Positions 1-53,268 of a stretch of DNA of 53,268 nucleotides are shown one piece after another. The notes beneath the pieces were generated by a model that worked only from the letters and a program-made list of their open reading frames with translations, had not been told where the DNA came from and ran no database searches. The number at the start of each line of letters is the position of its first letter. The first letter of the stretch is position 1. This DNA is from Escherichia phage Ecp_YSF, in sequence record OR327751.1; one strand, given 5' to 3'. The translations under genes and the position numbers were made by a program.

Positions 1-141
1 AAGTTCAGGCTTTCGTTTGGGTTACTCCTCATCCCGAAGTTAGCTGGATTCAAAATCCAGACTATGTTCCTATACACATGAAATATGCAAGTCGAGGGTT
101 CTTAATGTTCAAACATGATGCGAGCATTGAGCGGGTTTATA
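1..141. repeat. Left copy of direct terminal repeat; identical to 53128-53268
   Basis: Exact 141-nt identity with the last 141 nt of the window; repeat may extend beyond the window edge. Contains 7-bp hairpin CTGGATT-caa-AATCCAG at 44-60. Confidence 0.9.
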
Positions 142-37030: not shown

Positions 37031-37052
37031 GATATTAGTTGGTTGTGAATTG
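37031..37052 (+). promoter_or_regulatory. Conserved phage motif copy a (candidate phage-RNAP promoter)
   Basis: GATATTAGTTGGTTGTGAATTG; matches consensus CTGAAACATTAGTTGGATGTGAA; about 65 nt upstream of RNAP start. Confidence 0.4.
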
Positions 37053-37115
37053 TGTAATGGCTACGCTATTATAATCCGTTTCAGTTAAATCATACACAAT
37101 CTTGGAGACTTACAA

Positions 37116-39056
37116 ATGATTACTATCACCACTCAAACTATCAAATCTGTTGTTCCTGCTATCACTGCTCTGGTATACCGTGCCAAAGAGAAGCAGAACT
37201 ATATGCAGCCTCAGACTTGTGCTATTGCTGCCCTAGCCATATTCAAGATGATGACGTCTTTCACTCGTGATGACGTTGTTCCTGCCATTGCGATGGTTGA
37301 GCTGGCTTCTGCTTCTATTGCTGATGCCAACCGCTACAACAACGATTTGAAAGCAATGCACTATGTTGACCCAGCTATCAACCTCATTGGTTTGGCTAAG
37401 CACTTTGGCTTCATCACCATGAACGAAGACAAGTCATTCCAGCAAACTGACACATGGGTTGAACTGGTTACAACCAAAGACACAGCAGTGCCATTCACTG
37501 AGCGTGTTACATCTGAATCTCGTCGCAAGCCTTTCGTTAAAGGTGGCAAAGTTAAGCCATCCAAAACTCTGAAAGCTGCAATCGAATTCCTGCAAGATAC
37601 TGAGTACCATGTGGAGACTGAGATGGTTCGCATCATCCAGTCCATGCTTGAGCAACGTACTTATGGTGGCTTGCAGATGCCAGAAGCAATCCAAACTGAA
37701 CTCCATGTTTGGAACAATGCTGTAGCAATGATGAATCAGGATAAGCTGTATTCTGACTACTTTGCTGATAACCGTGGTCGTCTGTATCATGTAGCATGTG
37801 CTGGTCCTAACCCACAATCCTCTGACTTTGCTCGTTGCTTGTATTCTCACAATGTTGAGAACATCGTTAAGAAGTTTAACGAAGATGGTTCTACTACCAT
37901 TGCATACAACATGTTCATGGCAGAGCTGGAAGATATTTCCGGTGGTGAATGGTGCAGTGCTAAGCGTTTAACTTATGTTGCTCAGAATCCAGCTGGTTCA
38001 CTTGCTCGCATGATGAACATGCCTAAAGCTGAGCGTCCTTCTAAGCCATTCACTTATGTTCGTCTGGCTCTGGATTGGTTCAAGTTTGAGACTACAGGTG
38101 AATGCGATTCTCGTGTAGGCTTTGGCTTAGATGCTAAATGTTCTGGTACTCAATATCTGGCATTCATTGCTGGTAACATGGAAATGGCTCGTGCAACAGG
38201 TCTGGTTGATTCTGAGACTAAAGCATCTGACCCATACCAGTTGAGTCTTCGTGAACTGTTGAAGCTGCTGGACAAGTCTTCAATGAAACCATCTCCTGAA
38301 ATTATGGATGAATTCTTGAATCCGAAAGCTGGTCGTAAGTTTATCAAAACTCCATACATGGCTATCCAATATGGTGGTGGTAAAGCTGCACTAACTGGTT
38401 CTTCTGACTTTATCTCCTACATGACAGAAGCTCTCCAGATTCCTATGGAGAAAGCTGAGGCATTTGCTGAACTGTGTGTAGAAGCAATCCATAACGCATT
38501 GGGTGCTAAGATTAACATGTTCATTGAGAAAGCTGCTGATGCTGCATACAACCGTTGTGTTGAACTTGGTAAAGAGTACATCACATACCGTCACACTGAT
38601 GGTCAGGTTGTAATGAAGCCTTGCTTCCCATCTCGTGAAATCTGTGAGGCATTCAGCATTCGTGTTGACTCCCAAACTCGTGTTATCTTTGGTCAGATTC
38701 AGGAGAATAAGCCTTGGACCATTCGTGAATCCAATCCAACTAAAGAAGAATTCAAGCGTACTTTCGTTGTTAACTACATTCAAGGTATTGACGCACTGGT
38801 TGCTCGTACTGTTGCAGTTAAAGCTAAAGAAGCTGGTCTTCGTGGCTTTACTTCAATTCACGATTGTTTCCGTTGCTGCTTAGCTGATGCTCCACGTATG
38901 ATGGAAGTTATTCGTGCAGCATATGTTGAAATCTTCGTAACCAACAATCAATTCGAGAATCTGTCTAAGCAACTCGGTGGCATTCAGATGTATCATGAGA
39001 ACATCGTAACCGAAGAGCTTCTGATGAGCGAACACGCTTACTACTTCTGTCAATAA
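37116..39056 (+). CDS. Single-subunit DNA-dependent RNA polymerase (T7-like catalytic core, compact 646 aa)
   Basis: Motif A-like LDAKCSGTQYLAF; motif B-like RKFIKTPYMAIQYGGGKA; motif C-like FTSIHDCFRC; RBS GGAGAC before ATG. Confidence 0.75.
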   Translation: MITITTQTIKSVVPAITALVYRAKEKQNYMQPQTCAIAALAIFKMMTSFTRDDVVPAIAMVELASASIADANRYNNDLKAMHYVDPAINLIGLAKHFGFITMNEDKSFQQTDTWVELVTTKDTAVPFTERVTSESRRKPFVKGGKVKPSKTLKAAIEFLQDTEYHVETEMVRIIQSMLEQRTYGGLQMPEAIQTELHVWNNAVAMMNQDKLYSDYFADNRGRLYHVACAGPNPQSSDFARCLYSHNVENIVKKFNEDGSTTIAYNMFMAELEDISGGEWCSAKRLTYVAQNPAGSLARMMNMPKAERPSKPFTYVRLALDWFKFETTGECDSRVGFGLDAKCSGTQYLAFIAGNMEMARATGLVDSETKASDPYQLSLRELLKLLDKSSMKPSPEIMDEFLNPKAGRKFIKTPYMAIQYGGGKAALTGSSDFISYMTEALQIPMEKAEAFAELCVEAIHNALGAKINMFIEKAADAAYNRCVELGKEYITYRHTDGQVVMKPCFPSREICEAFSIRVDSQTRVIFGQIQENKPWTIRESNPTKEEFKRTFVVNYIQGIDALVARTVAVKAKEAGLRGFTSIHDCFRCCLADAPRMMEVIRAAYVEIFVTNNQFENLSKQLGGIQMYHENIVTEELLMSEHAYYFCQ

Positions 39057-39073
39057 CATTAATTGGGTCAAGG

Positions 39074-39298
39074 ATGACCACAAACTTGGAGACTACAATG
39101 AATACCATGCAAATCAATCAAATCGAAAACTGTTTCAATCCTCATCACACCTGTGACATGAGTGATTTATCTCGTCCTACGGTGGAGGAGACTAAAGACT
39201 TCTTAGAATTGTTATCAGAATATAAGCAAGAGTCGCATGTATTATTGCACGCATTCTTGCATAATTCTGGATTCTTTGATACAGAAATACCGTTCTGA
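39074..39298 (+). CDS. Hypothetical small acidic protein (74 aa)
   Basis: ATG-initiated ORF after RNAP; in-frame ATG at 39098 with GGAG upstream is an alternative. Confidence 0.4.
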   Translation: MTTNLETTMNTMQINQIENCFNPHHTCDMSDLSRPTVEETKDFLELLSEYKQESHVLLHAFLHNSGFFDTEIPF

Positions 39299-39303
39299 TA
39301 CTT

Positions 39304-39328
39304 GGGAGCTTCGGCTCCCTATTTTTGT
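39304..39328 (+). terminator. Rho-independent terminator
   Basis: GGGAGC-ttcg-GCTCCC followed by TATTTTTGTTCT. Confidence 0.75.
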
Positions 39329-39367
39329 TCTAATTAATCTTAGAGCTGGCTTCAATATTGTAGCCAG

Positions 39368-39392
39368 TTGTAACATTAGTTGGATGTGAAGT
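39368..39392 (+). promoter_or_regulatory. Conserved phage motif copy b
   Basis: TGTAACATTAGTTGGATGTGAAGTA. Confidence 0.4.
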
Positions 39393-39599
39393 AACAGAAT
39401 ACGGAGAAGTATTCCGCATGTCATGTTGAAATCATTCTAGAAACATTTCAGCATGTCAACTAAACATACAGCGTTGTAATGATGTGGCAATCATTGAACT
39501 CCCTGTCTTTGGCCGGACAAAGTTCCAGCAACCATGTGTGAAGTAGGAATATCATTCGAAACTGTTCTTCAAATAAACATGACTTATCCCTAAAGAAGC

Positions 39600-40320
39600 T
39601 GGGACAGCTCATGTAGTACCAGCATGTTCAATTGTGACAATATTGCTCCATCTCCTATTATAAAGGCCCACCCACAAGCCGGGAGATAACTTTGGTAATA
39701 TTGGAACTTTTGGACATGCTTCTTTCTTTCAATCAGAATTCGAAAGAAGAGAAGAGTCGGAGCAAAGCCGCGAAACTAATCCCGTAGCCCGCCCCGATTT
39801 TGAGCAACAAATATTGTGACAATTTTGTCGCAGTATGGCATGTAAATATTGCTACAAATTGGCATGTTGGAATGTGGCAGAATTGTTAGAGGACTAATCC
39901 CCTCGAAGATACAATCGTCTACCAATCTGGCATGTTATTTTTGTAACAGTATTTGTGCCAATTTCGCATGTATTAGCTGTATCAGTATTAACCCAATATT
40001 CTTGCAACCCGCATGAATACTGGCTTCCAGCCAAGCGAAGGCTTTATCATCGCATGTAAATATTGTGACAATATTGGGATAAAACCCTTTATTTAATTAG
40101 TTTTATTATGCTGTACATGGTCGGTTTTCCGTACCTGCTTGCTCCAATCTTAATGTGCCAAATACGTTAAGTATGGGAGTAAACCTGTAATTAATGGTGC
40201 ATGTTTAATTGTGACAAAATTCGTCTATTTGGCAGATGAATTAGTTGCAATTAAGCATGTTCATTTATCATTAGTTGCATGTGAATAAGACCAAATCTCT
40301 GTAAATTCTGCCGAAATTGT
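39600..40320. repeat. Cluster of operator-like palindromes (AATATTGTGACAATATT family), each preceded by GCATGT
   Basis: Copies near 39616, 39810, 39836, 39925, 40050 (perfect 17-bp palindrome at about 40063-40079), 40197; related AATATTGCTACAATATT at about 36567. Confidence 0.7.
40265..40290 (+). promoter_or_regulatory. Conserved phage motif copy c
   Basis: TTATCATTAGTTGCATGTGAATAAGA. Confidence 0.4.
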
Positions 40321-40484
40321 GTGACAGATTTTAGAGAGATTATGTCTCCAAGCTAATCATTGCAGTTTTTCGACACTTTGTGTGTCACATATAGCCTGTG
40401 AAAAACGTGTGGTATATTGCTGGATTGCGACGCGCCCACCAGACTAGGAAGTCACTGACGGCGGCACACACAGGAATACTATAT

Positions 40485-40555
40485 AACTCCCTACAACTTT
40501 AAGGTGGATTGAGGTAAGACAAGACCTCCACAATCGTTCTGTAGGGAGTTCTTTT
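40485..40555 (+). promoter_or_regulatory. Long-range stem enclosing an inner hairpin, then U-tract, 8 nt before the RBS of the first small gene
   Basis: AACTCCCTACA (40485-40495) pairs with TGTAGGGAGTT (40540-40550); inner GTGGA/GAGG...CCTC/CAC; followed by CTTTT and AGGAG-ATG. Confidence 0.45.
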
Positions 40556-40571
40556 AACTCAGGAGAATAAA

Positions 40572-40790
40572 ATGACTCGTTTTAAAGATTTGGTAGATGG
40601 TGCAATCTTCTTTACGCGTGGTGGGGAACATCTGCAAAAGGTTTTGGAAGATGACATTAATGTAAATGCTGTATTCGTTGGTGATTCTAACATTGGTGTT
40701 TTATTAAATGACAATGAAAGGACTTTTACCGAGGAGGAGTTTAAAGAAATCTCAGCCTCTGATTTAGTTCAAGAGCCAATTGAAGTTTAA
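40572..40790 (+). CDS. Small acidic protein (72 aa), first gene after control region
   Basis: Strong RBS AGGAG; about 16 Asp/Glu versus about 7 basic residues. Confidence 0.55.
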   Translation: MTRFKDLVDGAIFFTRGGEHLQKVLEDDINVNAVFVGDSNIGVLLNDNERTFTEEEFKEISASDLVQEPIEV

Positions 40791-40833
40791 TGCGTGGGAG
40801 GGGGAGTAAACCCTCCAAATTTGGAGAGCAGAA

Positions 40834-41064
40834 ATGAATTATGCACTGTATTGTTATTTAAACAAGCAAGGCTTTGTTAAGCACGCCCTAGTTAACATTA
40901 AAACTAAGGAAGTATTATTGGCCGACCAATCAATTGTTGATTTCAGATTGGTATGGAAGAAAGCAATGCATCCTGGACATGTTTGGGAAACAATTCAGTT
41001 GGATAAGCACCACAAAATTGTGGCAACTGCTACTCGTCCAGACCATATTCTACCAAGAGGTTAA
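40834..41064 (+). CDS. Hypothetical protein (76 aa)
   Basis: RBS GGAGAG before ATG. Confidence 0.5.
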   Translation: MNYALYCYLNKQGFVKHALVNIKTKEVLLADQSIVDFRLVWKKAMHPGHVWETIQLDKHHKIVATATRPDHILPRG

Positions 41065-44100: not shown

Positions 44101-44119
44101 CAATTAGTTGGATATGAGG
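44101..44119 (+). promoter_or_regulatory. Conserved phage motif copy e (variant)
   Basis: CAATTAGTTGGATATGAGG. Confidence 0.35.
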
Positions 44120-46187: not shown

Positions 46188-46459
46188 TTTCAATAGACCA
46201 AGTTCCAGTTGAACTAAGTAAGGCAAAAGGTAAGCTAGATGATGCCAAATCTGACTTATCTACCTTTGATTTAAATGCTCCGGCCGATAAAGTTAAGGTT
46301 TTCATCGACTGTATTGATGGATGGGTGCTTATTGAGCATGGAGTCCTTCGAGCATTACTTGTTGATGAAGTTGCCAAGGCTCAGGAAGCATTTGACGAGA
46401 TTGATAACCTCAACACACTGTTAAACAACACTTTAAGCGATGCGCTAAAGGATAAGTAA
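46184..46459 (+). CDS. Hypothetical protein (91 aa)
   Basis: ATGA overlap. Confidence 0.45.
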   Translation: MISIDQVPVELSKAKGKLDDAKSDLSTFDLNAPADKVKVFIDCIDGWVLIEHGVLRALLVDEVAKAQEAFDEIDNLNTLLNNTLSDALKDK

Positions 46460-46854
46460 TGAATGTTAAGCTCGGTCAACGTTCTTTGGACCGACTTAAG
46501 GGAGTAAATCCTTCATTAGTTGCAGTTTTCAAACGTGCATGTGAAACGATGCCTTTTGATGTGACTGTTTTGGAAGGTTTACGCTCTTATGAACGTCAAC
46601 AAGAACTATTAAAACAGGGTGCAACCAAAGTTTCAGTTAGCCGACACATGTCAGGCAACGCTTTGGACATTGCGCCGTACCCAATTGACTGGAATGACCT
46701 TGAACGATTCCAAATTGTGGCTGAACACATGTTCAAAGCCGCAGAAGAGCTTGGAGTTGTTATTCGCTGGGGCGGAACATGGGAACGAACCTTCACTAAG
46801 CCAGTGAAATGGGCCAAGTTCCTTGATGCACCGCACTTCGAACTTCCGGCATAA
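46459..46854 (+). CDS. Peptidase M15-like (VanY / L-alanyl-D-glutamate peptidase-like) zinc peptidase
   Basis: Motifs SRHMSGNALDIAP (H-x6-D) and DAPHFEL. Confidence 0.6.
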   Translation: MNVKLGQRSLDRLKGVNPSLVAVFKRACETMPFDVTVLEGLRSYERQQELLKQGATKVSVSRHMSGNALDIAPYPIDWNDLERFQIVAEHMFKAAEELGVVIRWGGTWERTFTKPVKWAKFLDAPHFELPA

Positions 46855-46862
46855 CTTCATCA

Positions 46863-47153
46863 ATGGAGCATCCGATGGAATATCAGGAAATACCGAAAGA
46901 GTTAGAGCGTATGCAATCTCGCACATATCGTGCAGGGGCAGAACTCCACCAGCATTTGTCAAACTATGTGAACGATTCTCGAAATCTCAGGTCCGAAATT
47001 GCGGTTGATGGTTGTTGCTATCTGGTAACATACGACGAGAAGACCGCCATACTAGACATGCTAGTAAAGGGTGGAAAAGAGCGAATTGAACAGCTCAAAA
47101 TCCTTAATGCGGAACTTCAAGGCATGTGGGAGAAACTCAATGCAAAACGATAA
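46863..47153 (+). CDS. Hypothetical protein (96 aa)
   Basis: ATG-initiated; coiled-coil-like C-terminus. Confidence 0.45.
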   Translation: MEHPMEYQEIPKELERMQSRTYRAGAELHQHLSNYVNDSRNLRSEIAVDGCCYLVTYDEKTAILDMLVKGGKERIEQLKILNAELQGMWEKLNAKR

Positions 47154-47688
47154 CATTGCTCAAGCAGTAGAACAGCTTAAGTCCTGGCGTAGAGATGAAA
47201 CCTTATTGGTTCGTTTCTACACAGGCGAAACTAATTCTGAATTTGTAGATGCGTGGATTGATGGCCTGTCTTGGCGTCATTATGATTTCGACATGCGGGA
47301 GTATTTGCATGAAGAATATGGCATCGAGTATCCAGAATCCGGTACATACGACGTAATTGAATCGAATGAGGAAGATGTTACCGAAGTTTGCTTTGTTGAC
47401 GGGCTGTTCAGCATTCGTAAATATGACAAGTTCAACGAACTGCTTGTTGATACTGACTTGGACGTAATTCTTGCGGCATTCCGTAGCGGTGATATCGACA
47501 TTTTCACTGTAGACGATTTGAATGACAAGGTTATTTGCCGATGTGATTCAATTGCGGATTATTTCCAGCAATATGATGGCATAGAAGTTCCAGACCATCT
47601 TCGTCCATATATCGATTGGGATGCAGTTGCGAGAGATTACGGAAGTGATTACACTTTCTCCGAAGGGATACTATTCTCAAATGCGTGA
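47140..47688 (+). CDS. Acidic protein, ArdA-like anti-restriction candidate
   Basis: Highly acidic; segments VDAWIDGL and YIDWDAVARDYGSDYTF resemble ArdA blocks as recalled from memory; start taken at ATG 47140. Confidence 0.4.
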   Translation: MQNDNIAQAVEQLKSWRRDETLLVRFYTGETNSEFVDAWIDGLSWRHYDFDMREYLHEEYGIEYPESGTYDVIESNEEDVTEVCFVDGLFSIRKYDKFNELLVDTDLDVILAAFRSGDIDIFTVDDLNDKVICRCDSIADYFQQYDGIEVPDHLRPYIDWDAVARDYGSDYTFSEGILFSNA

Positions 47689-47920
47689 TTTAAATATCGC
47701 TGAACTTGAGGCTGGATTGATTGTCCACCACCAGCCTCGAAACACTTTCTATCGTATTCTTGGGCCTACAAAGATTAAAACTCATTGCGGAAGTTGGGTA
47801 GATGGGTTTGCTTACCAAGAAGTTAAGAAGTACGGGGACCATACTTTCTTAAGTATTGATTCTTCTACTATCTACACACGACCGAAAGAGTTATTTGACT
47901 CAGATTGGAAAACGCTATAG
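47681..47920 (+). CDS. Hypothetical protein (79 aa)
   Basis: ATG 47681 overlapping upstream stop. Confidence 0.4.
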   Translation: MRDLNIAELEAGLIVHHQPRNTFYRILGPTKIKTHCGSWVDGFAYQEVKKYGDHTFLSIDSSTIYTRPKELFDSDWKTL

Positions 47921-47984
47921 TTCCAGGCGGGTTTCTTCGAAGTGCCAAGCGGGTTTTGTACTCGCATTGGCCTTCGGCTTTAGT

Positions 47985-48008
47985 CTGAAACATTAGTGGG
48001 ATTTGATT
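47985..48008 (+). promoter_or_regulatory. Conserved phage motif copy f
   Basis: CTGAAACATTAGTGGGATTTGATT. Confidence 0.35.
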
Positions 48009-48124
48009 CTGACCACTTAGGGAAGAAAGGCATTATACACTTATCGCCAAATGGGTGTCAAGCACTTTCTTCATTTATTTAATTTATTCTTATTATTCTT
48101 TTTGTTTGGAATATTGGAATAATC

Positions 48125-48147
48125 CTGAAACATTAGTTGGAATTGGA
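48125..48147 (+). promoter_or_regulatory. Conserved phage motif copy g
   Basis: CTGAAACATTAGTTGGAATTGGA immediately before ATG 48148. Confidence 0.4.
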
Positions 48148-48324
48148 ATGATTAAAGTTCTGGAAAAAGATAACGTAACCTTCGCACGTCAGTGTGGAGG
48201 ATGTTTCTCTGTAGTATCTTACGTGTTCTCTGACTTAAAGATGTACACAGGAAAGAATGACCGAGGATACTTCGCATACAGATTCATTACTTGTCCTGTT
48301 TGCAAGAAGAGTATTCGGCATTAG
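48148..48324 (+). CDS. Small Cys-containing protein (58 aa)
   Basis: Motif copy g abuts the ATG; C-terminal CPVCKK; the track's longer ORF (48055) would contain the motif. Confidence 0.35.
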   Translation: MIKVLEKDNVTFARQCGGCFSVVSYVFSDLKMYTGKNDRGYFAYRFITCPVCKKSIRH

Positions 48325-48337
48325 TTGGAATTGAAAC
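48317..48337 (+). promoter_or_regulatory. Conserved phage motif copy h
   Basis: CGGCATTAGTTGGAATTGAAA; overlaps stop codon of the upstream ORF. Confidence 0.35.
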
Positions 48338-48352
48338 AACATCAGATAAGAG

Positions 48353-48417
48353 CTTTGTAACTAGGTAGTCCGTCTGGTACCAAGACGTGTGAGAACGTTC
48401 GATTCGTTCTACAAAGC
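48353..48417 (+). ncRNA. tRNA-like structured element (acceptor-like stem and canonical T-arm; reduced D region)
   Basis: CTTTGTA pairs with TACAAAG (extendable to 11 bp); hairpin CGTCT-GGTACCA-AGACG; T-arm GAACG-TTCGATT-CGTTC; followed by CTCTTTTCG. Confidence 0.4.
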
Positions 48418-48969
48418 TCTTTTCGATGGAATGTTTCCATCATATACATTTATCTTTTAACATAGGCCAAAGGGCCGGAATACTTATTCGCAGAAAAGCT
48501 ATTCACTTGTTATAGGCGATGTATTGGGATGAATTAGAACTAAATAAGCAAGCTGTTAGGGCTGAATAATTAGAGGGTTGTGCCTCATGCTTATGTTAGT
48601 CATTCGAAAATAGGTTTGTGCCACAAGCTGCTGGTGCTCTGAGGAAGTCGGACAAACAGGGCTTAGAGTGGCATAATCCGCACAAAACCGCGCCACCAGC
48701 TATGCCAAAGCAGGTGGATTGGGTGAATGTATTGGGAAGGGTTGCAAAGCCTCTGCGAGCACGGTATCGCGTATAATAAGTGACGTCTGCGCTGCGTGTA
48801 TCGCACCCTAACGGGAGTAACCCTTCGCCAATGCAGTTATCCAGAATTGACACAAACGGTAGGCAGTGGCCCGATTTTCGGCCTTCCTGTGCTACCCTGT
48901 GGCCTGTTTCATGGGCCAAAAGATGAGAAGAGAAGTCACAAACCCCGAATCGAAAATTGGAGAGTTCCT

Positions 48970-49260
48970 ATGATTCGCAAACATTCTATCCGGGTAATTA
49001 AGGCCCGTAATATTCACACAGGAGAGATGGAAGCATTCGCTTTCTTGGGTGGAAAGTTTTATTTATTTGGTTGGGAAGGAAGTGATTTAAAGTTTGAATT
49101 CTTTATGAATATGTACTCGATTAAAGAGTTGTTAAACAATGCGACCTACGGACCATCCTACATGGAATATTGTTTCGGCAAGCCAGTCGAGCATCTTCTG
49201 TCCAAATCTTTCATTTACAGCTGGACAACAAACCAACCAGTTTACGGAGTTCCATTTTGA
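48970..49260 (+). CDS. Hypothetical protein (96 aa)
   Basis: ATG with GGAGAG upstream. Confidence 0.45.
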   Translation: MIRKHSIRVIKARNIHTGEMEAFAFLGGKFYLFGWEGSDLKFEFFMNMYSIKELLNNATYGPSYMEYCFGKPVEHLLSKSFIYSWTTNQPVYGVPF

Positions 49261-53127: not shown

Positions 53128-53268
53128 AAGTTCAGGCTTTCGTTTGGGTTACTCCTCATCCCGAAGTTAGCTGGATTCAAAATCCAGACTATGTTCCTAT
53201 ACACATGAAATATGCAAGTCGAGGGTTCTTAATGTTCAAACATGATGCGAGCATTGAGCGGGTTTATA
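53128..53268. repeat. Right copy of direct terminal repeat; identical to 1-141
   Basis: Exact 141-nt identity with window start. Confidence 0.9.

What the first reader, a model, noticed from the sequence alone, without database searches (positions are those of the whole stretch)
47140..47688. ArdA-like acidic protein and an acidic first early gene: candidate anti-restriction DNA mimics
The protein at 47140-47688 is strongly acidic and has segments (VDAWIDGL; YIDWDAVARDYGSDYTF) that resemble conserved ArdA blocks as I remember them. The 72-aa product of the first gene after the control region (40572-40790) is also markedly acidic, which parallels the first early gene of T7 (Ocr). Both are plausible inhibitors of host restriction-modification systems.
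Basis: partly seen in the sequence, partly recalled or inferred. Interest (0 to 1): 0.5.

Follow-up and report, generated by a model that had tools for sequence, protein, structure and literature searches.

The report
Phage ArdA homologue plus Ndd.1-like protein
One of the two acidic phage proteins is a real but very divergent ArdA-type DNA mimic, already annotated as "antirestriction protein" in related phages and never tested; the other is not Ocr-like but belongs to the uncharacterised T4 Ndd.1 family.

Summary
The window is a circularly assembled genome of a Carltongylesvirus-type phage (Chaseviridae; ST32, flopper and phiEcoM-GJ1 relatives).

**ORF 47140-47688**
- It encodes 182 aa with net charge -28 and pI 4.05.
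- It misses Pfam ArdA's curated cut-off on its own (21.5 bits against 27).
- Family profiles, bridging homologues and a confident AlphaFold model all place it in ArdA over its full length. The only significant PDB fold match is Tn916 ArdA, 2W82.
- The anti-restriction motif and the essential residues are kept, and the charge is spread over all three domains.
- Every chasevirus genus sampled has it. GenBank and PHROGs already call it "antirestriction protein", with no experimental evidence.

**ORF 40572-40790**
- It encodes 72 aa with net charge -10, so it is acidic.
- It is predicted to be a small SH3-like beta-barrel with an acidic C-terminal helix. Ocr is all-alpha.
- It belongs to Pfam PF26909 (Phage_T4_Y16K), the family of T4 ndd.1. 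The family occurs in about 900 T-even records and in T5-like and N4-like phages.
- A 96%-identical orthologue was in a published 200-gene anti-defence screen and was not reported as a hit. The EcoKI/lambda hits were only ardA, ral and ocr.
- It is not the first gene from the physical genome end.

**Verdict:** The finding is ordinary, already annotated and of low-to-moderate interest.

The parts
47140..47688 (+). Gene for a 182-aa divergent ArdA-family protein (predicted DNA mimic; putative type I R-M inhibitor)
   Evidence: ORF and translation. PHROG 14321 'anti-restriction protein', 3e-54. Pfam ArdA. AF2 model pLDDT 89.3. Foldseek 2W82_B, E 7.3e-5, TM 0.56/0.61 over 174 columns.
47128..47133 (+). 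Shine-Dalgarno (GGGAGA) for the ArdA-like gene, inside the 3' end of the upstream ORF
   Evidence: Read directly from the sequence.
46863..47153 (+). 96-aa ORF of unknown function; overlaps the ArdA-like start by 14 nt (translational coupling likely)
   Evidence: The same arrangement is annotated in ST32 (gp25/gp26). No significant family match at the thresholds used; only a weak PHROG 18063 hit at E 0.0075.
47681..47920 (+). 79-aa ORF (PHROG 2652, unknown function); overlaps the ArdA-like stop by 8 nt; last gene of the operon
   Evidence: Homologous to ST32 gp27.
44101..44117 (+). Copy of the 17-bp motif annotated in relatives as 'putative phage promoter'. It lies upstream of the SSB gene and is the nearest such site upstream of the ArdA-like gene.
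   Evidence: 9 copies, all on the + strand; 0.17 expected. SA91KD annotation.
47921..48006 (+). Intergenic end of the operon. A rho-independent terminator is annotated at the homologous place in SA91KD, followed by a motif copy at 47990-48006.
   Evidence: The terminator is inferred by homology; the simple scan did not call it.
40572..40790 (+). Gene for a 72-aa acidic protein of the T4 Ndd.1 family (Pfam PF26909 Phage_T4_Y16K; PHROG 2183). Function unknown.
40268..40284 (+). Motif copy (2 mismatches) about 290 bp upstream of the 72-aa gene, inside the non-coding control region
   Evidence: Annotated as 'putative phage promoter 2' in phiEcoM-GJ1.
37044..39384 (+). Inferred direct terminal repeat, by homology to the experimentally determined 2,339-bp repeat of PYps23T. 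It holds the RNA polymerase gene and an acidic 74-aa ORF, so it defines which genes lie nearest the genome end.
   Evidence: Inference by homology only; Mangalitsa's PhageTerm prediction differs.

Best explanation
**ORF 47140-47688.** It encodes a full-length but highly divergent member of the ArdA family.
- It is predicted to fold into ArdA's three small domains and carries about 28 excess negative charges spread evenly over them.
- By analogy with Tn916 and plasmid ArdA, it probably dimerises through domain 3. The dimer would mimic a stretch of bent B-DNA and occupy the DNA-binding groove of the HsdS/HsdM core of host type I restriction-modification enzymes. Phage DNA would then be neither cut nor methylated.
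- Shown here: homology, fold, conservation of the motif residues, the charge pattern, and conservation across Chaseviridae.
- Inferred: dimerisation, the target, and the biological effect.
- The gene is the second-last of a middle-region operon that also holds the SSB and endolysin genes, about 10 kb from the inferred left genome end. If it protects phage DNA, it does so after, not during, genome entry, or it protects replicating DNA.

**ORF 40572-40790.** It is a different thing.
- It is a 72-aa member of the T4 Ndd.1 family, predicted as an SH3-like beta-barrel followed by an acidic helix and tail.
- It is an accessory early gene shared by four virulent phage families.
- It most likely binds a host protein (host take-over or anti-defence, target unknown). 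It is not an Ocr-like DNA mimic.
For: **ArdA-like protein**
- PHROG 14321 'anti-restriction protein' matches at 3e-54 over the full length.
- Pfam ArdA matches all 17 close family members (best 5.5e-9) and 33 of 40 representatives from an exhaustive profile search (best 1e-33).
- The profile of those 40 finds 2W82 ArdA at E 6.9e-6.
- The AF2 model has pLDDT 89.3 and pTM 0.80. Its secondary structure matches the published ArdA description: a 3-stranded sheet plus helices, then a helical domain, then a 3-stranded sheet plus 3 helices (PMC2731889 read).
- Foldseek against the PDB gives one significant hit, 2W82_B: probability 1.00, 174 aligned columns of a 162-residue target.
- Residues that the Tn916 work calls essential or interface-forming are invariant or nearly so in the family. 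P131/L134/Y137/I138/D139/Y140 and F161 correspond to P151/L154/Y157/I158/D159/W160 and F179.
- Net charge is -28 over 182 aa, against -27 over 169 aa for plasmid ArdA. Domain charges are -9, -9 and -10.
- It is present in 63 phage records covering Carltongylesvirus, Sabourvirus, and Erwinia, Pectobacterium and Aeromonas chaseviruses, at 24-98% identity. In records that start at the RNA polymerase gene it lies at a similar map position.
- The genome carries EcoKI, EcoBI, EcoAI and EcoR124I sites at roughly the expected numbers, so it is a potential target of type I systems.

**72-aa protein**
- It carries the precomputed Pfam label PF26909, named Phage_T4_Y16K.
- It is 32% identical to T4 Ndd.1 over 66 residues.
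- Homologues lie in early-gene clusters of T5-like, T4-like and N4-like phages. In N4-like contigs the gene sits between homologues of N4 gp1 and gp2.
- Acidity is conserved among all full-length family members (64-77 aa): net -7 to -14.
Against: **ArdA-like protein**
- It does not reach Pfam's curated cut-off by itself (21.5 against 27 bits).
- Single-sequence phmmer finds no ArdA in the PDB.
- Identity to Tn916 ArdA is only 20%.
- Only some of the conserved acidic residues that cross the Tn916 dimer interface have acidic counterparts (alignment). The equivalent of interface residue L127 is unclear.
- A roughly 19-residue, uncharged N-terminal helix has no counterpart in canonical ArdA.
- No relative has been tested; GenBank notes say 'No experimental evidence'.
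- Being near the end of an operon about 10 kb from the genome end is poor timing for protecting incoming DNA.

**72-aa protein**
- No function is known for any member of its family.
- The orthologue from phage flopper (UDP0122) was in the Silas et al. library and is not mentioned among the hits.
Confidence: 0.7

Rival explanations
1. The ArdA-fold protein is a DNA mimic, but its main target in chaseviruses is not type I R-M. The target would be another DNA-binding defence or host protein, such as a nucleoid protein, a repair nuclease or another defence system.
For: - It behaves as a family-wide conserved gene rather than a swappable accessory gene.
- It sits in a middle operon with replication and lysis genes, far from the genome end.
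- It is strongly diverged from plasmid ArdA: no tblastn match in 72,556 plasmids.
- The literature shows that DNA mimics differ sharply in target range. Ocr blocks BREX, whereas ArdA does not (PMC10149784).
Against: - Every ArdA tested so far inhibits type I systems (PMC2731889; PMC10149784).
- The motif residues and the charge pattern are kept.
Confidence: 0.15
2. The protein at 47140-47688 is not an anti-defence protein at all. It would be a structural or replication protein, as some GenBank records say ('tail fiber protein', 'replication inhibitor protein').
For: Those labels are attached to orthologues in PYps3T, PYps4T, PYps16T, PYps23T, MLP1, FXie-2024a and Pel53.
Against: - No fold or family evidence supports either label.
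- The only significant fold match is ArdA.
- The gene lies in the early/middle region, not among the tail genes.
- The labels look like annotation-transfer errors.
Confidence: 0.03
3. The 72-aa acidic protein is an Ocr-like or small-ArdA-like inhibitor of type I R-M.
For: - It is acidic (net -10 over 72 aa), and this is conserved in the family.
- It is the first ORF after the control region and has a strong Shine-Dalgarno sequence.
- It lies in an accessory region that Silas et al. chose for anti-defence screening.
- Very small ArdA fragments can be active (PMC12548430).
Against: - It has no Pfam match at all at E<=1, so none to ArdA or to any Ocr model.
- The predicted SH3-like barrel has no similarity to Ocr, ArdA or any solved DNA mimic.
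- It is a homologue of T4 ndd.1 and is present in about 900 T-even records. From general knowledge, the modified DNA of those phages is not a substrate for type I enzymes.
- A paralogous 82-84-aa gene with the same barrel occupies the same slot in phiEcoM-GJ1 and Mangalitsa. By hand count from the alignment it is only about net -3.
- In the MG1655/lambda pooled screen the recorded hits were only ardA, ral and ocr, although the flopper orthologue was in the library.
- It is not the first gene from the inferred genome end.
Confidence: 0.06

Closest known systems
ArdA of Tn916 (ORF18; PDB 2W82, and 7BTO/7BTR, which carry the same chain sequence) and plasmid ArdA (ColIb-P9, pKM101, WP_000129958.1)
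   Same: - Same predicted three-domain fold over the full length.
- Same anti-restriction motif and VF-type C-terminal strand residues.
- Same net charge and pI, with charge on all three domains.
   Different: - About 20% identity, and below Pfam's cut-off for this sequence.
- An extra uncharged N-terminal helix of about 19 residues, and a 4-residue insertion between domains 2 and 3 in the close family.
- Fewer acidic residues in the stretch that crosses the Tn916 dimer interface.
- Encoded by a virulent myovirus as a conserved middle-region gene, not in the leading region of a conjugative element.
'Putative antirestriction protein' of phiEcoM-GJ1, ST32 gp26, Mangalitsa_024, 4HA13, PM1 and PP101 (PHROG 14321)
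   Same: Orthologues: 97.8% identity to ST32 gp26 and 80.8% to phiEcoM-GJ1, with the same neighbours and orientation.
   Different: Nothing of substance. This is the same gene in another isolate, and none has been tested experimentally.
Ocr (gene 0.3) of phage T7
   Same: Both candidates are small and acidic, with pI about 4. ArdA and Ocr share the DNA-mimic mechanism, though not the fold (PMC3906837).
   Different: - Ocr is a helical protein made from the first gene to enter the cell.
- Neither candidate has that fold or that position.
- Neither candidate has a sequence match to an Ocr family.
T4 Ndd.1 (Pfam PF26909, Phage_T4_Y16K; PHROG 2183)
   Same: The 72-aa protein is a member: 32% identity over 66 aa to T4 Ndd.1, the same length class (64-77 aa), the same acidity, and a place among early genes.
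   Different: Here it is the first ORF after the non-coding control region of a chasevirus. No function is known for any member.
Small ArdA proteins sArdN / sArdC (Utkina et al. 2025)
   Same: Short acidic proteins with anti-restriction activity, which shows that a 60-70-aa protein can inhibit type I systems (PMC12548430).
   Different: sArdA proteins are homologous to single ArdA domains. The 72-aa protein has no ArdA match and a different predicted fold.

Membership tests
ArdA (Pfam PF07275) | Sequence match to the family profile above the curated cut-off | tested here: inconclusive
   The window protein scores 21.5 bits, E 3.9e-4, against a cut-off of 27. All 17 close relatives hit at E<=0.1, best 5.5e-9. 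P0049 and P0050, at 40% identity, carry the precomputed PF07275 label. Of 40 distant relatives, 33 hit, best 1e-33. The profile of those 40 finds 2W82 at E 6.9e-6.
ArdA (Pfam PF07275) | Three-domain fold: N-terminal 3-stranded sheet with a short helix, central helical bundle, C-terminal 3-stranded sheet with 3 helices (PMC2731889) | tested here: met
   The AF2 model (pLDDT 89.3) has strands 22-27, 35-40 and 69-75; helices 78-84, 92-102 and 107-116; strands 131-134, 171-174 and 177-180; and helices 138-144, 152-157 and 160-170. The only significant Foldseek PDB hit is 2W82_B, TM 0.56/0.61, 174 columns. This is a prediction, not an experimental structure.
ArdA (Pfam PF07275) | 'Anti-restriction motif' (Tn916 residues 126-140) with essential Y137 and I138, plus the C-terminal VF-motif (F161) | tested here: met
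   Window E149-V150-P151...L154...Y157-I158-D159-W160 aligns with Tn916 E129-V130-P131...L134...Y137-I138-D139-Y140. P151, D159, G176 and F179 are invariant, and L154, Y157, I158 and W160 nearly invariant, in the family. The equivalents of L127 and F91 are ambiguous in the alignment.
ArdA (Pfam PF07275) | Large excess of acidic residues spread over all three domains (DNA-like charge) | tested here: met
   Net charge -28 over 182 aa, pI 4.05. Domain charges are -9, -9 and -10. Plasmid ArdA has -27 over 169 aa and pI 4.05.
ArdA (Pfam PF07275) | Homodimer through domain 3 that mimics about 42 bp of bent DNA | not testable with these tools
   No multimer prediction was available. The equivalent of L134 is conserved. 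Only some of the conserved acidic residues that cross the Tn916 interface have acidic counterparts.
ArdA (Pfam PF07275) | Relief of type I restriction (and modification) in vivo; binding to the methyltransferase core | not testable with these tools
   No experiment on any chasevirus homologue was found.
Ocr (T7 gene 0.3) | Sequence or fold similarity to Ocr (helical dimer) | tested here: not met
Ocr (T7 gene 0.3) | First gene on the entering end of the genome | tested here: not met
   The left end inferred from PYps23T maps to window 37044. The RNA polymerase gene (37116-39056) and a 74-aa ORF (39074-39298) come first. This rests on homology, not on data for this phage.
Ocr (T7 gene 0.3) | Relief of type I restriction | not testable with these tools
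   Indirect literature evidence only. The flopper orthologue (UDP0122) was in the library of Silas et al.. Their notes for MG1655 plus lambda list only ardA, ral and ocr as hits, and orf122 is never mentioned in the text.
T4 Ndd.1 family (Pfam PF26909 Phage_T4_Y16K; PHROG 2183) | Sequence match to the family | tested here: met
   PHROG 2183 matches at 6.9e-14. Close and distant homologues carry the precomputed PF26909 label. BLASTP to T4 Ndd.1 gives 32% identity over 66 aa, E 1e-8 against a four-protein set. PF26909 is not in the local Pfam copy, so the window protein itself was not scored against it.

The most novel reading that the evidence does not exclude
Two readings are not excluded.

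(a) The chasevirus ArdA clade is conserved in all genera sampled, is near the end of a middle operon, and carries an extra N-terminal helix. It may have been retargeted from type I R-M to another DNA-binding host or defence protein. Alternatively it may protect replicating rather than entering DNA.

(b) The Ndd.1 family is an acidic SH3-like barrel found among the earliest genes of chaseviruses and of T-even, T5-like and N4-like phages. It may be a still unrecognised, widely shared host take-over or anti-defence factor.
Probability: 0.2. Interest if true: 0.55.

Novelty: already known. Interest (0 to 1): 0.25.

Why it matters
If the ArdA homologue is active, it would help explain how chaseviruses cope with the type I restriction systems that are very common in E. 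coli. These phages are being isolated as biocontrol and therapy candidates against ETEC, STEC, Yersinia, Erwinia and Pectobacterium.

It would also predict sensitivity to 'anti-anti-restriction' suicide systems that sense ArdA, such as Ronin (Silas et al.). That bears on host-range prediction.

The gene has carried the label 'antirestriction protein' since the phiEcoM-GJ1 record (EF460875; Jamalludeen et al. 2008) without a test, so one plating experiment would settle it.

The Ndd.1-family result matters mainly as a correction. Acidity and an early position are not enough to call a DNA mimic.

Tried and rejected
**Searches that found nothing useful**
- Single-sequence phmmer of the ArdA-like protein against the PDB gave no ArdA hit.
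- The profile of the 17 close relatives ranked archaeal PriL above ArdA over the C-terminal 60 residues. I treated the PriL hits as chance because they disappeared with the broader profile and in the fold search.
- NCBIfam had nothing for either protein.
- The Rfam and tRNA scans of the window were empty.
- The sigma-70 promoter scan of 39-49.5 kb found no more sites than shuffles do, so it says nothing about timing.
- Literature searches for any experiment on a chasevirus ArdA, or for transcriptomics of a chasevirus, found none.
- The original phiEcoM-GJ1 paper is not held.
- The supplements of the Nat Commun version of the Silas screen do not contain orf122 data.

**Ideas considered and rejected**
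- A T7 Gp2-like host-RNA-polymerase inhibitor role for the 72-aa protein. Homologues occur in T4- and T5-like phages, which (from general knowledge) depend on host RNA polymerase, and Gp2 was not among the PDB fold matches listed.
- Type I site avoidance as a test of need for an inhibitor. Counts are within about 1.5-2 sd of expectation for EcoKI, EcoBI, EcoAI and EcoR124I, which is only weakly informative.

Full report
**What the window is**

A 2-kb stretch around the finding matches 45 phage records at 84-92% nucleotide identity. They include ST32, PO103-1, flopper, Mangalitsa, phiEcoM-GJ1 and Yersinia PYps phages, and those whose taxonomy I retrieved are Chaseviridae, mostly genus Carltongylesvirus. 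The first 141 bases of the window repeat exactly at its end. It is therefore a circularly assembled contig with a unit length of 53,127 bp. Almost all genes are on the + strand. The order is replication genes, structural genes, a T7-like RNA polymerase gene (37116-39056), a ~1.2-kb non-coding stretch, and then a long run of small early genes.

**Observation check**

- Both ORFs are present as described and have good ribosome-binding sites.
- The protein from 47140-47688 has 182 aa, 42 acidic and 14 basic residues, net charge -28 and pI 4.05.
- The protein from 40572-40790 has 72 aa, net charge -10 and pI 4.18.
- Among 71 non-overlapping ORFs they are the two most acidic per residue, about 3 sd above the mean.

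**The 182-aa protein is a divergent ArdA**

*Sequence evidence*
- On its own it scores below Pfam's cut-off for PF07275: 21.5 bits against 27, E 3.9e-4, covering only profile positions 60-146.
- It finds no ArdA in the PDB by phmmer.
- PHROG 14321, annotated 'anti-restriction protein', matches end to end at 3e-54.
- The word-indexed search found 51 relatives. Nearly all come from ~52-kb contigs, and two distant ones (40% identity) carry PF07275.
- All 17 sequences of a family alignment hit PF07275 at E<=0.1, best 5.5e-9.
- An exhaustive profile search of 1.84 billion representatives returned 177 proteins. They grade from full-length matches to matches over the C-terminal domain only.
- Of 40 of these, 33 hit PF07275, best 1e-33. 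Their profile finds Tn916 ArdA (2W82) at E 6.9e-6.

*Fold evidence*
- The AlphaFold model is confident: pLDDT 89.3, pTM 0.80.
- Its only significant PDB match is 2W82_B: E 7.3e-5, probability 1.00, TM 0.56/0.61, 174 columns, 20% identity. Every other hit has E above 1.
- The predicted elements match the published description of ArdA's three domains (PMC2731889).

*Key residues*

| Tn916 ArdA | Window protein | Conservation in the family |
|---|---|---|
| E129 | E149 | not among the conserved columns listed |
| P131 | P151 | invariant |
| L134 | L154 | nearly invariant |
| Y137 | Y157 | nearly invariant |
| I138 | I158 | nearly invariant |
| D139 | D159 | invariant |
| Y140 | W160 | nearly invariant |
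| F161 | F179 | invariant |

These are the residues of the 'anti-restriction motif' and the C-terminal VF-type strand. The Tn916 studies identify Y137, I138 and F161 as essential and L134 as interface-forming.

*Charge*
- The total equals that of a plasmid ArdA: -28 over 182 aa against -27 over 169 aa, both with pI 4.05.
- It is spread evenly over the three predicted domains: -9, -9 and -10.

*Differences from canonical ArdA*
- An uncharged N-terminal helix of about 19 residues.
- A short insertion between domains 2 and 3.
- Fewer acidic residues where the Tn916 dimer interface is crossed.

**Distribution and status**

- tblastn finds the gene in 63 phage records. All listed records are 51-56 kb; their annotated taxonomy and genome size indicate chaseviruses of Escherichia, Yersinia, Erwinia, Pectobacterium, Dickeya and Aeromonas, at 24-98% identity.
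- In records that begin at the RNA polymerase gene, it lies 7-11 kb in.
- No plasmid matches.
- It therefore behaves as a conserved gene of the family, not a recent acquisition.
- GenBank records call it '(putative) antirestriction protein', with 'No experimental evidence'.
- A few records mislabel it 'tail fiber protein' or 'replication inhibitor protein'.
- I found no paper that tests it.

**How it most likely works, and the weak point**

By homology, it should dimerise and mimic bent B-DNA. It should then sit in the DNA-binding groove of the HsdS/HsdM core of type I enzymes (PMC2731889, PMC3906837). Canonical ArdA is specific for type I systems and does not block BREX or EcoPI (PMC10149784). 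The genome carries the recognition sites of classical E. coli type I systems at about the expected numbers, so it is exposed to them.

The weak point is timing.
- The gene is the second-last in an operon that starts near the SSB gene. A copy of the motif annotated as 'phage promoter' lies at 44101.
- The operon ends at a terminator that is annotated in the homologous SA91KD position.
- The physical left end lies about 10 kb upstream of the gene. This is inferred from PYps23T, whose 2,339-bp terminal repeat was determined experimentally (PMC8762354; mapping).
- This is unlike T7 ocr or the leading-region ardA of plasmids.
- It leaves room for a different target, or for protection of replicating DNA.

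**The 72-aa protein is not Ocr-like**

*Family*
- It has no Pfam hit in the local library. It belongs to PHROG 2183 and, by the precomputed label, to PF26909, named Phage_T4_Y16K.
- A T4-type family member finds about 900 T-even records. In T4 the match is ndd.1 (71 aa, net -8), next to ndd. The window protein is 32% identical to it over 66 residues.
- Other members lie in early-gene clusters of Klebsiella T5-like phages (Sugarlandvirus) and T4-like phages.
- In N4-like phages the gene sits between homologues of N4 gp1 and gp2.

*Fold*
- The model (pLDDT 80) is five short strands, a C-terminal helix and a disordered acidic tail.
- All the weak matches are SH3-like barrels: PWWP, chromo, Tudor, L2 and EF-P domain I.

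*The slot it occupies*
- Acidity is conserved within the family.
- A paralogous 82-84-aa gene has the same N-terminal barrel (hhalign probability 93.6%, E 2e-7). It occupies the same slot in phiEcoM-GJ1, Mangalitsa, MLP1 and Bp10, and sits in tandem with the 72-aa gene in PYps23T.
- By hand count from the alignment, that paralogue is only about net -3.

*Published screen*
- The orthologue from phage flopper (QHR68764.1, 'UDP0122') was one of 200 accessory genes screened by Silas et al. (bioRxiv 10.1101/2023.04.06.535777).
- Their records for MG1655 plus lambda list only ardA, ral and ocr as hits.
- The gene is not mentioned among any hits.
- This is a negative result from a pooled screen, so it is suggestive rather than conclusive.

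**Verdict**

The ArdA interpretation is supported at the level of homology and fold, but it is already the standard annotation and remains untested. The Ocr parallel for the first early ORF is not supported. That gene is a member of the uncharacterised T4 Ndd.1 family. Overall this is an ordinary finding with two modest open questions: the real target and timing of the chasevirus ArdA, and the function of the Ndd.1 family.

Noticed in passing
window 37032-37048 and 39373-39389 (further copies at 40268, 43504, 44101, 47990, 48130, 48318, 50253): A 17-bp motif, ACATTAGTTGGATGTGA, occurs 9 times, always on the + strand, against 0.17 expected. Relatives annotate it as 'putative phage promoter'. 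Both ends of the experimentally determined 2,339-bp terminal repeat of PYps23T map to the same position inside two copies of it (ACATTAGTTGGA^TGTGA). The motif may therefore mark the terminal-repeat boundaries as well as, or instead of, promoters. ICTV states that chasevirus promoters are not yet identified. Mangalitsa's PhageTerm repeat (3,234 bp) does not coincide with motif copies.
   Followed up: partly
window 1-141 and 53128-53268: The two stretches are identical (141 bp). This is an assembly overlap of a circularised contig; the unit genome is 53,127 bp. The window does not show the real terminal repeat.
   Followed up: yes
window 40572-41064, compared with L009 3959-4207, L010 1688-1936, L014 3480-3987: The slot right after the non-coding control region is a swap site. 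Homology to Mangalitsa stops exactly at the start codon of the 72-aa gene. Relatives carry the 72-aa Ndd.1-type gene, an 82-84-aa paralogue with the same barrel domain, or both in tandem (PYps23T).
   Followed up: partly
window 39074-39298: A 74-aa ORF directly after the RNA polymerase gene is the third most acidic protein of the window (net -9, pI 4.6; PHROG 20790, unknown function).
   Followed up: partly
window 46459-46854: An M15-family endolysin (L-alanyl-D-glutamate peptidase type; Pfam Peptidase_M15_4, 5.5e-9; PHROG 465) sits in the early/middle region two genes upstream of the ArdA-like gene, far from the structural genes.
   Followed up: no
window 47920-48970 and 39425-40571: There are two non-coding stretches of about 1 kb each. 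The first, just downstream of the ArdA operon, holds three motif copies within 350 bp. The GenBank records of flopper and TH29 start inside it.
   Followed up: no
GenBank records of relatives: The ArdA homologue is labelled 'tail fiber protein' in PYps3T, PYps4T, PYps16T, PYps23T, MLP1 and FXie-2024a, and 'replication inhibitor protein' in 'Staphylococcus phage Pel53'. The latter is a ~53.7-kb record 77% identical at protein level to this E. coli phage gene, so its stated host looks doubtful. Some Ndd.1-family genes are labelled 'naphthalene 1,2-dioxygenase'.
   Followed up: no
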